Assembly: GCA_964106645.2 (NCBI GenBank)
Contig: OZ067042.1
From: Podarcis pityusensis
Lineage: Eukaryota
Length of the DNA stretch: 64,000 nucleotides
Direction: 5' to 3' (one strand)
Shown here: piece after piece, positions 1 to 3,000 of the stretch
How positions within the stretch are numbered: the stretch's first letter is position 1
How the letters are laid out: every line of letters begins with the position of its first letter
Made by a program: the position numbers

Positions 1-3000
1 ACGCAGCTCCATGCCGGGAAGGGGAGAGCAAGAGGCAAGCAGGAAGGCATGTCCAGCGGCTGCCACAACCGGCCCACCCTGAGGCGAAGCAGACCCTCCC
101 CTCAGGGCCCTGGCTCCAGCTAAAGCCCCCTCTGACCTGGGGTGGCGCCTTTTCCGCGGCCGAGGGAGCGAAGGCTCCGCGTCGCGGCGATAAGGGGGAG
201 AAGGGAGCAGCCAGGAGCGCAGCGCCTGGGAGAGCCATTTGTACATAGGCCTCAGCCACAGCGGCCGGCCCGGAATTGCGTCACTTTCCCGCGACCGGCG
301 CGCAGTCAGTGACGAAGTGACGAAGAGATTAGGAAGGGAGGCTGTTTATATACTGTATATCTATATTTCGAAACTTTTCTCTTCACCCGCCGTCTGCTCT
401 AAAAGAAAACAAAGTGTGCGCTTCATATGCATGGTCATAGTATTCTCTTACTTTGGGCCGAGCTCCATGTCTGCAGTTCTGCTCCTCGCGCACCCGTCAG
501 GCGTCTTTCCATTCGGGTCTCTACTGCCTGACGGGCGGGGGGAGGGGGAGACCCTATTTTATACCACGCGGGTGCGGAGAACATGGGCGGGGGGACCACA
601 GGAGCCAGTAAACGCGGAGAACGCGCGCTTTTTCGCAGCCCTTTGCCTTCCCCACCCTGGTTCTCCACTTATTTGCCTGCCTTTAACTCCCGTCAGCGCC
701 CACCATGGACCGTCCTGGCTGGGGCTGATGGGAGTTGAAGTCCAACAGGAACCCGGAGCCGAAGGGGTAGAGCGCCGCCCCATAGACTCGGAGGCCGGGA
801 TGGCGGGCGGCCATTTTCACAGGAAGTTCCGGCTGTGCGTCGCCACGTCCCTCCTCTGTTTGTGTGAGGGACGGGGCGCCGCGTCACGCGGGGGCAGGTC
901 CCGGAGTTCGCCGCGCGGCGCTTTCCGTTCCTCCTCGTTTTCCGTTCCTCCCGGCGGCCGTTGTGAATGCTCCGCTATGCGCTCCCTCGGAGGGTTCTTG
1001 CTGGTCCTGGGGGCGGCCACGGCGGCGCTTTACTTGCTGTCGGTGCGGCTGCCCGGAGAGCCGCGCGCGGGGAGCGGGTGAGTGGGACTCTTCCTCGGCG
1101 GCTTCGAGGCGGTTGCGGCTTGGCGGGGGCCCCGCTCGCGGAGCTGGGATGCTGCGCTCTTCCCAGGGAGGAGGAGGAGAAGCGAGCCTCGGCTTCATTA
1201 ATGCCTCAGCGGCGTCTTCTCTCTTCGGGATTGTTGACTTGCACTCACTTGCCCCGAGAGCAGAAGGTCCTGGGTTTTTTGCTGAGGGCGCCTGCGACTG
1301 TGATTGACAGCGAGCCTAAAAATACACCGCCGCCGAAATCCGATGCTACCCTTCGCGTGTGCGGTGCTCGGAAATGTGCTGCTGCATGCTCTGAACTAAG
1401 TTTAGGTGTGTAGGAAGTTGTTATGAAACAGCCTCGAGATGTTCAAGTGGTCTCGGGTACCCGCTGAGCTGAAGGGAGTTGGTGCCCCCTTTCACCATAC
1501 ATTTAAAGCACGCACACACTAATAATCCTGGGAACTGTAGTTTGCTCCTCATGGTACTGCAGATCCCAGCACCCTTAACAAACTGCAGCTCCCAGGATTA
1601 TTTTTTTCGAATGTGGGGCGGGGGGCAGGGAAAGAGGGATGTGCTTTAATTGTGCTTTAAATGTATGGTATGTGTACACAGCTGTAAGTAATGACTTGTG
1701 GACTTTGGAAGGCACTATCCTCTTATTCCAAAATTGCTGACAGATTGATTGATTGTAACAAAAGCAGTGGTGCAGTCGTAAGGTCATTTGGACTCTAGAC
1801 TTAATACTTGTAACTGGAGGCTCTTCAGATGGTAGTGTGTTGTGACACATCCTTCAGAATCTAGCACCACTGAGCATAAGTTGTGTTTCGGTTTTGTTTT
1901 TGATGCTGTTTAAAGAATGCTTGTCCCACAATAAATCTGTTAGTCTCTAAGGTATCACAGCATGTTAGAATTTATTCAGTAACATACAGTACTACTCTTC
2001 AATCATACATGCCTTGGTGCATATTTCAAATGACTTCTTGCTGCTTGTTCATCCATCTATGAACTTGCAGTGGCAAGCTCAGCCACAGAATAGCATTTAA
2101 TAAAGAGCACTCCACACTTCAGATGTCTTGCTTCAGGCAACATCTTGCTATCTAAAAGTAAGAGTTGTAGAGGTCTTAAAGCAGAAAGGCTTGGGTCTTT
2201 CCAGAACAATGACTATAGTTTAGTGAGAATTGAATGATCCTTATGACTGACCTCTGTCAGTAGTTTTTAGGGGATCAGCTTCTCATTGTAGAGAATATCA
2301 CTGATTTTTCCCTCATTTCCTTTTTACTTTAGGTTATACACATATCAGGAATTTGAATAGCTGTTAAGTTTTAAACAGTTGTAAAACCAGCGGCCTGTCT
2401 TTGCCACAAAATCAAAGCTAAGCAGTAGCCCACCATACCCCACAGGTACCAGAATTCACTGCAATTCTTTTCTGCAATTCCTAACTCAGCAAGTATCTTG
2501 TAGTAATTAAGGCTGTATTTTTAAAAATGTAATCAACTGTTTGCTTCAGTAAAATATGTTGAAATCTGAACATGATTGTTTTACAGTTTGAATTTTCATG
2601 AGAAACTAGCGATAAGCAGAGCTGATGCATTTCACAGACTGACAAATCCTGAGCACTGTGGAAAAAATACAGCCTAAATTATAACTCTCCTTCTGCGTTA
2701 GATTTCACTTAAGAAGGATTCTAACTTTGAATTGCTGCCTCTGATGAATCTCACCAATGTATACTGTACTAACAGTTTAATACGTGGCTTGCTTTCTTAA
2801 TTGTCCAAAGTTTTAGTAACTAGCACCTTCCTTGCTTTGCTGAAATGTTGCACCTTTATGCTCTGTGTTAGCATTAGGCCACAAGGTAAAGATACTACAC
2901 TTGTTTCTGCTTGAAAAGTTAATTGCTGAGTTCTTGTTGAAACCAAGCAATGAATGAACGAATGGCATGAATAACTGTGTGGTCACAGTTTAAGAGAAGG

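What the first reader, a model, noticed from the sequence alone, without database searches (positions are those of the whole stretch)
137..1077. SENP2 and TMEM41A head-to-head with ~730 bp between ATGs: no room for LIPH
Seen: an MYKWL...RKRRH exon on the minus strand directly faces TMEM41A exon 1. Known: the human order is MAP3K13-TMEM41A-LIPH-SENP2, and LIPH generates LPA for LPAR6 signalling in hair follicles. Inference: LIPH is lost or relocated in this scaled reptile, or it was inserted here in other lineages, leaving one compact bidirectional promoter. No lipase exon was noticed elsewhere in the window.
Basis: partly seen in the sequence, partly recalled or inferred. Interest (0 to 1): 0.65.

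Follow-up and report, generated by a model that had tools for sequence, protein, structure and literature searches.

The report
SENP2–TMEM41A shared promoter, LIPH absent
Two ordinary housekeeping-type genes, a SENP2-like gene and TMEM41A, start back to back 730 bases apart in one CpG island, at the place where mammals carry the lipase gene LIPH; this is a real but modest gene-order difference, and the window cannot show whether LIPH is lost or moved.

Summary
On the minus strand an ATG at 246 opens a 36-codon exon (MYKWL…RKRRHP) that ends at the first GT donor, at 137. On the plus strand TMEM41A exon 1 runs 977-1077. Exactly 730 nt separate the two ATGs, inside a 1.5-kb CpG island. TMEM41A is complete: five AG/GT exons, with VTT-domain hits on two of them. 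A DLK/LZK-type kinase, taken as MAP3K13, lies tail to tail with it at 33822-17713. The block therefore matches the mammalian MAP3K13-TMEM41A-[LIPH]-SENP2 order and orientation, minus LIPH. A Pfam scan of all 849 stop-free ORFs of 38 aa or more found no lipase domain. The SENP2 call is the weak point. It rests on a recalled N-terminal motif, an amphipathic N-terminus, a basic cluster at the exon end and synteny; no database search confirmed it. Whether LIPH was lost or relocated cannot be decided from one window. A 2012 survey lists a LIPH-like gene in Anolis and a chicken LIPH on chromosome 9, the chromosome that also carries MAP3K13. That favours a derived removal over insertion in other lineages. 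The link to hair is speculative, because LIPH predates hair. Interest is low to moderate.

The parts
1..136 (-). start of intron 1 of the SENP2-like gene (runs off the window)
   Evidence: It follows the donor CAG|GTCAGA. The rest of the gene lies left of the window and was not seen.
137..246 (-). first coding exon of the SENP2-like gene (110 nt, 36 codons + 2 nt)
   Evidence: ATG at 246 and the first, best-scoring GT donor. Amphipathic N-terminus: muH 0.68 over residues 1-11, reached by 0.14% of 5000 shuffles. R29 and R31-K32-R33-R34 lie at the exon end. This fits the human SENP2 features described in PMC6085828. No Pfam, PDB or Atlas hit.
247..976 (.). 730-nt spacer between the two start codons: candidate bidirectional promoter plus both 5' UTRs
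   Evidence: GC 0.604, CpG o/e 1.01. GC boxes at 533, 585, 775 and 805. ATGGCGG at 800 and GCCATTTT at 810. AGGAAGT at 821. TTTCCCGC at 285. Seven TGACG half-sites. ACTTCAACTCCCA at 729-741 on the minus strand. No CCAAT. Direct 16-nt repeat at 919-934 and 936-951. The motif names are recalled; no binding was tested.
1..1500 (.). CpG island covering both first exons
   Evidence: In 200-nt bins GC is 0.56-0.72 and CpG o/e 0.63-1.19 up to 1400, then 0.43 or less.
977..1077 (+). TMEM41A exon 1 (coding part, 101 nt, ends in phase 2)
   Evidence: ATG at 977, donor GTGAGT at 1078. Its phase is completed by exon 2.
4271..4424 (+). TMEM41A exon 2
   Evidence: AG at 4269-4270 and GT at 4425-4426, frame continuous with exon 1. 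No Pfam hit on its own.
7111..7272 (+). TMEM41A exon 3
   Evidence: AG/GT borders. Pfam VTT_dom PF09335, E 3.5e-6, profile positions 8-48 of 123.
8102..8240 (+). TMEM41A exon 4
   Evidence: AG/GT borders. Pfam VTT_dom, E 1.2e-4, profile positions 69-108 of 123.
9049..9272 (+). TMEM41A exon 5, coding part with stop TGA at 9270-9272
   Evidence: AG at 9047-9048, phase completed from exon 4, stop codon present. The five coding parts add up to 780 nt; this is arithmetic only and the joined model was not made.
9273..17712 (.). 8.4-kb gap between the stop codons of TMEM41A and the kinase gene (both 3' UTRs); no lipase
   Evidence: No Pfam Lipase among the ORFs of 38 aa or more here. No lipase motif context. 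Poly(A)-signal strings occur on both strands.
17713..33822 (-). coding span of a DLK/LZK-type kinase gene taken as MAP3K13, tail to tail with TMEM41A
   Evidence: First ATG of the N-terminal ORF at 33822, stop TAA at 17715-17713. All 4 kinase exons tested hit Pkinase or PK_Tyr_Ser-Thr, with E from 6e-5 to 3.7e-16. The best solved relative is MAP3K12, 5cen_A, E 1.1e-36; the next is MAP3K9 at 3.6e-14. The choice of MAP3K13 over MAP3K12 rests on recall and on the neighbouring genes.

Best explanation
The window holds the counterpart of the mammalian gene block MAP3K13-TMEM41A-LIPH-SENP2, with the same order and orientations but without LIPH.

As a result, the first coding exons of a SENP2-like gene (minus strand) and of TMEM41A (plus strand) diverge from one 1.5-kb CpG island, with 730 nt between their start codons. 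The two genes most likely share a CpG-island bidirectional promoter. This is inferred: no transcription start was mapped.

The absence of LIPH at this spot is most likely a derived removal in this lineage, by deletion or by a move elsewhere, and not the ancestral arrangement. Whether the genome still has LIPH somewhere else cannot be told from this window.
For: - Exon anatomy and the 730-nt spacing.
- CpG island over both first exons.
- TMEM41A: five in-phase AG/GT exons, and 2 of the 5 exons hit the VTT domain in consecutive parts of the profile.
- Kinase gene tail to tail with it: all 4 kinase exons tested were recognised, and the best solved relative is MAP3K12, E 1.1e-36.
- No Pfam Lipase in any of the 849 stop-free ORFs of 38 aa or more, on both strands, and no lipase motif context.
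- SENP2-like exon: amphipathic N-terminus, and a basic cluster at residues 29-34 just before the exon end. PMC6085828 describes human SENP2 as having an N-terminal amphipathic helix and a bipartite NLS (R29, R49) split between exons 1 and 2 (passages read).
- Mammalian order: a rabbit BAC holds MAP3K13, TMEM41A and LIPH, with SENP2 next; human LIPH lies near MAP3K13 and SENP2 (passages read).
- Derived state: chicken LIPH2 at chr9:4.675-4.684 Mb, plus frog and zebrafish LIPH genes (Table 1 of PMC3482443). Chicken MAP3K13 is on chromosome 9.
Against: - No search recognised the SENP2-like exon. Its catalytic domain lies outside the window.
- The human motif M-Y-R-W-L is recalled only: 0 papers hold it and it is not printed in PMC6085828. 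That paper also says the zebrafish N-terminus is not conserved in sequence.
- The donor has a C at +3.
- Transcription starts are unknown. An out-of-frame ATG sits at 967, 10 nt before the TMEM41A ATG.
- The chicken data show the same chromosome, not adjacency.
- The Pfam scan skipped ORFs under 38 aa and had no lipase positive control. It recovered 2 of 5 TMEM41A exons, so decayed remnants could be missed.
- TMEM41A versus its paralogues and MAP3K13 versus MAP3K12 were not tested with tools.
Confidence: 0.7

Rival explanations
1. The SENP2-TMEM41A adjacency is the ancestral non-mammalian state, and LIPH was inserted between them in other lineages.
For: Nothing in the window argues against it. 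No paper found gives the gene order in reptiles, amphibians or fish.
Against: Chicken has a LIPH copy on chromosome 9, and chicken MAP3K13 is on chromosome 9. Mammals have LIPH between the two genes. LIPH genes are listed for frog and zebrafish. Two independent insertions at one site, in birds and in mammals, would be needed if the chicken copy sits at this locus.
Confidence: 0.12
2. The minus-strand ORF at 137-246 is not SENP2 exon 1. It is a chance ORF in a GC-rich island or the first exon of another gene, and the true neighbour is unknown.
For: No Pfam hit, no PDB hit at E up to 10, and no Atlas hit. CpG islands carry long open frames by chance: the stop-free frame through TMEM41A exon 1 runs 194-1078, and this ORF runs on to position 1. 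The donor is not a strong consensus.
Against: M-Y-[KR]-W-L occurs once in the six frames of 64 kb, exactly at an ATG in the expected place and orientation. The amphipathic N-terminus is reached by 0.14% of shuffles. A basic cluster sits at the exon end, as described for SENP2. SENP2 is the gene expected there from the mammalian order.
Confidence: 0.1
3. An assembly artefact: the LIPH-bearing segment was dropped or collapsed when the genome was assembled.
For: It cannot be excluded without reads. GC-rich promoters are hard to assemble.
Against: The window has no N. The junction is unique sequence without long repeats; the only repeats found in 1-1500 are a 16-nt direct repeat and a short palindrome. 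Both flanking exons are intact, with proper splice sites.
Confidence: 0.05

Closest known systems
Mammalian 3q27-type block MAP3K13-TMEM41A-LIPH-SENP2 (human, mouse, rabbit)
   Same: Same genes in the same order and relative orientation. The kinase gene and TMEM41A lie tail to tail, and SENP2 diverges from the TMEM41A side.
   Different: LIPH, which spans 44 kb in human according to PMC3482443, is absent. Its place is taken by 730 nt of CpG island.
CpG-island bidirectional promoters of head-to-head gene pairs (definition recalled: starts less than 1 kb apart)
   Same: Divergent first exons 730 nt apart from ATG to ATG, one CpG island, GC boxes, and ETS-, YY1- and ZNF143-like strings.
   Different: Transcription starts and co-expression are not known. 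An AT-richer patch with TATA-like strings lies at about 345-560.
Human SENP2 N-terminal targeting module (PMC6085828)
   Same: Amphipathic extreme N-terminus followed by a basic cluster near residue 29. The exon border falls after the first basic cluster.
   Different: Only 36 residues are visible. Residue 8 is Ala here, whereas the paper's I8D mutant implies Ile in human. Prolines at 15, 17 and 18 would end the helix earlier than residue 18.
Anolis 'LIPH' XP_003224081.1 and chicken LIPH1/LIPH2 (Holmes & Cox 2012)
   Same: They show that sauropsids carry LIPH-family genes.
   Different: None is in this window. The lizard gene is listed with 11 exons on an unplaced scaffold whose other genes I could not find. 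Whether it is the LIPH or the LIPI-type copy is open.

Membership tests
Bidirectional promoter | Two genes on opposite strands transcribed away from each other | tested here: met
   Minus-strand exon 246..137 and plus-strand exon 977..1077 diverge.
Bidirectional promoter | Transcription starts less than 1 kb apart (recalled criterion) | tested here: inconclusive
   The ATGs are 730 nt apart. The starts would be closer still if both are first exons, but no start was mapped.
Bidirectional promoter | CpG island spanning both starts | tested here: met
   Island at about 1-1500. Spacer CpG o/e 1.01.
SENP2 (C48 SUMO protease) | C-terminal Ulp1/C48 catalytic domain | not testable with these tools
   It lies to the left of the window. 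No Peptidase_C48 hit among the 849 ORFs scanned, as expected.
SENP2 (C48 SUMO protease) | Extreme N-terminal amphipathic helix (PMC6085828) | tested here: met
   muH 0.68 for residues 1-11 (0.14% of 5000 shuffles reach it), 0.51 for residues 1-14 (2.4%), 0.38 for residues 1-18 (4.3%).
SENP2 (C48 SUMO protease) | First half of a bipartite NLS near residue 29, with the exon 1/2 border between the halves | tested here: met
   R29 and R31-K32-R33-R34, with the exon ending after residue 36. The paper's statement was read. The second half lies outside the window.
SENP2 (C48 SUMO protease) | Sequence similarity to known SENP2 proteins | tested here: inconclusive
   No hit in Pfam, PDB or the Atlas. 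The motif match is recalled only.
TMEM41A (VTT-domain protein) | VTT (SNARE-associated) domain | tested here: met
   Exons 3 and 4: E 3.5e-6 and 1.2e-4, profile positions 8-48 and 69-108. Each is below the whole-protein cut-off because it is a fragment.
TMEM41A (VTT-domain protein) | Orthology to TMEM41A and not to TMEM41B, VMP1 or TMEM64 | not tested
   It rests on recall of the human protein and on the MAP3K13 neighbour. The joined model was not built or searched.
MAP3K13 (LZK) | DLK/LZK-type kinase domain | tested here: met
   Best solved relative is MAP3K12, E 1.1e-36; the next family scores 3.6e-14. Pfam kinase hits on all 4 exons tested.
MAP3K13 (LZK) | LZK and not DLK | not tested
   No chain named MAP3K13 among the 60 shown. 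The call rests on recalled sequence and on synteny.
LIPH (pancreatic-lipase family) | Lipase domain PF00151 with a G-x-S-x-G elbow encoded in the window | tested here: not met
   0 of 849 ORFs matched. 0 strict elbow motifs, and the 5 loose G.SLG strings have no lipase context.

The most novel reading that the evidence does not exclude
The canonical LIPH orthologue was cleanly excised in this lineage, fusing what were separate SENP2 and TMEM41A promoters into one bidirectional promoter. The single LIPH-like gene reported for a lizard (11 exons, as in rodent Lipi in the same table) would then be the LIPI-type paralogue. In that case squamates would make LPA for LPAR6-type signalling without a true LIPH.
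Probability: 0.35. Interest if true: 0.45.

Novelty: new variant of a known kind. Interest (0 to 1): 0.3.

Why it matters
If LIPH is truly gone from the genome, this would be a lineage-specific loss of an enzyme that mammals need for hair growth, and it would raise the question of which lipase supplies LPA in reptile skin. The locus would also be a natural case of two promoters brought together by a deletion, useful for studying how bidirectional promoters arise. If LIPH has merely moved, or if a paralogue covers its role, this is an ordinary synteny difference.

Tried and rejected
I went exon by exon and ORF by ORF instead.
- The SENP2-like exon had no Pfam family, no solved structure at E up to 10 and no usable Atlas hit.
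- Searching papers for the N-terminal strings gave 0 papers, and PMC6085828 does not print the sequence in its text.
- No paper search found a report of LIPH loss or movement in squamates.
  - 1 paper, irrelevant.
  - 2 papers, irrelevant.
  - 202 papers held at least 3 of 4 terms and 20 were listed; 2 of those hold both LIPH and lizard.
  - 3 papers.
  - 11 papers.
  - only the 2012 survey.
  - badly designed; 15,251 papers and none of the 25 listed holds LIPH.
  - 2 papers, both dermatology.
- The quail paper gave no positions.
- Rfam at gathering scores found 0 matches in the window.
- A look at PMC10702118 for the repeat motif gave nothing usable for naming the taxon.
- I considered that the exon could be LIPH exon 1 and rejected it: it has no hydrophobic signal-peptide-like stretch.
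- The single weak Pfam hits, E 0.0011-0.0071 (NTF3_N, WD40, Papilloma_E5, Toxin_6, OprD, Ig_ZP2_3rd, Toxin_8), are taken as chance among 849 ORFs.
- The genome-contig collection was not used because it holds only bacteria and archaea.

Full report
**Scope and limits**

Only the 64-kb window was available. 

The joined coding sequences were never assembled, translated, searched or folded; only exon lengths were added. The window contains no N. I do not take it for human. That it comes from a scaled reptile was not tested.

**The observation**

On the minus strand an ATG at 246 opens MYKWLSQALRSWLLPSPPYRRDAEPSLPRPRKRRHP. It is followed by CAG|GTCAGA, with the GT at 136-135.

- The donor is the first GT after the ATG. 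It is the best of five GTs scored with a simple recalled matrix (3.0 against 1.9 or less), although it has a C at +3.
- The frame stays open to position 1, so the donor alone sets the exon end.

On the plus strand an ATG at 977 opens MRSLGGFLLVLGAATAALYLLSVRLPGEPRAGSG, ending at a GTGAGT donor at 1078.

The spacer 247-976 is 730 nt, with GC 0.604 and CpG o/e 1.01. It sits in a CpG island that covers about 1-1500.

**TMEM41A**

Four more exons follow with AG/GT borders and matching phases: 4271-4424, 7111-7272, 8102-8240 and 9049-9272, with stop TGA at 9270. The five coding parts add up to 780 nt.

- Of the five exons sent singly to Pfam, two match the VTT domain in consecutive parts of the profile. 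Exon 3 has E 3.5e-6 at positions 8-48, and exon 4 has E 1.2e-4 at positions 69-108.
- The other three exons have no hit.
- That this VTT protein is TMEM41A and not a paralogue rests on my recall of the human protein and on its neighbour. It was not tested.

**The kinase gene**

On the minus strand a gene runs from an ATG at 33822 to a TAA at 17715-17713.

- All four kinase exons tested hit Pkinase or PK_Tyr_Ser-Thr.
- One exon finds MAP3K12 (5cen_A) at E 1.1e-36. The next family, MAP3K9, scores 3.6e-14.
- No chain named MAP3K13 is among the 60 shown. The name MAP3K13 therefore rests on recalled N- and C-terminal sequence and on synteny.

The gene lies tail to tail with TMEM41A, with 8,440 nt between the stop codons.

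**No lipase**

All 849 stop-free ORFs of 38 aa or more, in six frames, were scanned one by one against Pfam at E 0.01 or below. No ORF matched Lipase (PF00151).

| Families matched | ORFs |
|---|---|
| VTT_dom | 2 |
| RVT_1 | 2 |
| PK_Tyr_Ser-Thr / Pkinase | 4 / 3 |
| DDE_1 + HTH_Tnp_Tc5 + CENP-B_N | 1 |
| Single weak hits, E 0.0011-0.0071 | 7 |

Each call listed at most four families, so the 25-family display limit hid nothing.

The recalled lipase motifs gave no strict nucleophile-elbow match. Of the loose scans, G.SLG matched five times, LDP[AS] once and DF..N once; none sits in a lipase-like context.

Limits of this test:
- ORFs under 38 aa were not scanned.
- There was no lipase positive control.
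- The same scan recovers 2 of 5 TMEM41A exons and all four kinase exons. A ten-exon intact lipase should therefore have shown, but decayed remnants might not.

**Is the minus-strand exon SENP2?**

No search recognised it: Pfam, solved structures at E up to 10, Atlas.

In its favour:
1. M-Y-[KR]-W-L occurs once in the six-frame translation of the window, at this ATG. I recall M-Y-R-W-L as the human SENP2 start, but no paper in the library prints it.
2. PMC6085828 (passages read) describes human SENP2 as having an amphipathic helix in the first 18 residues. It also describes a bipartite NLS (R29, R49) split between exons 1 and 2.
3. Here, residues 1-11 have a hydrophobic moment of 0.68, reached by 0.14% of 5000 shuffles. 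Residues 1-14 give 0.51 (2.4%) and residues 1-18 give 0.38 (4.3%).
4. R29 and R31-K32-R33-R34 precede the exon end at residue 36.
5. SENP2 is the gene expected here, in this orientation, from the mammalian order.

Against: the same paper says the zebrafish N-terminus is not conserved in sequence, and the catalytic domain is out of reach. I put the SENP2 call at about 0.85-0.9.

**How it most likely works**

The anatomy is shown. The rest is inferred.

Two divergent first exons in one CpG island, 730 nt apart, fit a shared bidirectional promoter. The spacer holds the following strings:
- GC boxes at 533, 585, 775 and 805.
- An inverted pair, ATGGCGG at 800 and GCCATTTT at 810.
- AGGAAGT at 821 and TTTCCCGC at 285.
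- Seven TGACG half-sites.
- ACTTCAACTCCCA at 729-741 on the minus strand.
- No CCAAT.

A 16-nt direct repeat lies at 919-951. From memory these strings resemble SP1, YY1, ETS, E2F, CRE and ZNF143 sites. No binding or transcription start was tested.

The 16-mer at 729-744 belongs to a repeat family: 7 matches with up to 3 mismatches, against 0.78 expected. That string may therefore come from an interspersed repeat.

**Lost, moved, or never there?**

Papers place LIPH between TMEM41A and SENP2 in mammals. A rabbit BAC holds MAP3K13, TMEM41A and LIPH, with SENP2 next (PMC3084274, passage). Human LIPH lies near MAP3K13 and SENP2 (PMC3482443, passage).

Table 1 of PMC3482443 lists:
- chicken LIPH2 at chr9:4,675,149-4,684,014;
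- chicken LIPH1 on chr1;
- frog and zebrafish LIPH genes;
- a lizard (Anolis) predicted LIPH, XP_003224081.1, with 11 exons, on scaffold GL343230.

Chicken MAP3K13 is on chromosome 9. This shows the same chromosome, not adjacency.

Together this favours LIPH at this locus in the amniote ancestor and a derived removal here. It weakens the idea of insertion in other lineages and the link to hair, since fish and frogs have LIPH.

Only one lizard LIPH-like gene is listed, against two in chicken. The lizard gene has 11 exons, like rodent Lipi in the same table. A reading in which the true LIPH was lost and a LIPI-type copy remains is therefore open, but untested. No paper found reports any of this.

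**Verdict**

This is a variant of a well-known conserved gene block and an ordinary kind of promoter. Interest is 0.3.

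Noticed in passing
window 59906-61633 (+): An uninterrupted 576-codon frame encodes a pogo/Tigger-type transposase: CENP-B_N E 5e-6, HTH_Tnp_Tc5 E 2.3e-12, DDE_1 E 1.4e-37. Its N-terminus resembles the CENP-B DNA-binding domain, 1hlv, E 1.6e-10. No convincing terminal inverted repeats were found. It could be a young transposon or a domesticated gene.
   Followed up: partly
window 52651-53352 (-): A 234-aa ORF resembles the C-terminal part of LINE-1 ORF2 protein (8sxt_A, residues 1049-1223, E 6.4e-13). It had no Pfam hit at E 0.01 or below.
   Followed up: partly
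window about 21140-21731 (+): Two ORFs in the 12-23 kb batch match reverse transcriptase RVT_1, best E 0.0011. By eye they are the broken LINE-like ORFs at 21.1-21.7 kb listed, inside an intron of the kinase gene.
   Followed up: no
window 36470-37146: A GC-rich tandem repeat, 118-nt unit x 5.7 copies, 96% matches. It accounts for the 'CpG island' at 36.2-37.5 kb. ORFs with similar translations occur at about 45.9-46.4 kb, so it belongs to a dispersed repeat family.
   Followed up: partly
window 59026-59645 and 6780-6864: Two further tandem arrays: a 150-nt unit x 4.1 just upstream of the transposase ORF, and a 33-nt unit x 2.6 inside the GC-rich patch in TMEM41A intron 2.
   Followed up: no
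window 54001-54750: A third CpG island (GC 0.62-0.63, o/e 0.86-0.99) lies about 20 kb upstream of the kinase gene's first coding exon. It may be that gene's promoter with a non-coding first exon. No Pfam hit there.
   Followed up: no
window 967-969 (+): An out-of-frame ATG lies 10 nt before the TMEM41A start and opens a 148-codon overlapping frame. The TMEM41A frame itself is stop-free back to 194 and has upstream in-frame ATGs, for example at 431. The true start depends on where transcription begins.
   Followed up: no
window 729-744, 5056-5123, 34555, 57505, 58371-58438: A repeated 16-mer family (TGGGAGTTGAAGTCCA and relatives): 7 matches with up to 3 mismatches against 0.78 expected. One copy lies inside the shared promoter.
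   Followed up: partly
window about 7990-8060: A dinucleotide (TG/CA-type) microsatellite lies just upstream of TMEM41A exon 4. It shows as CVCV…/THTH… runs in the translations.
   Followed up: no
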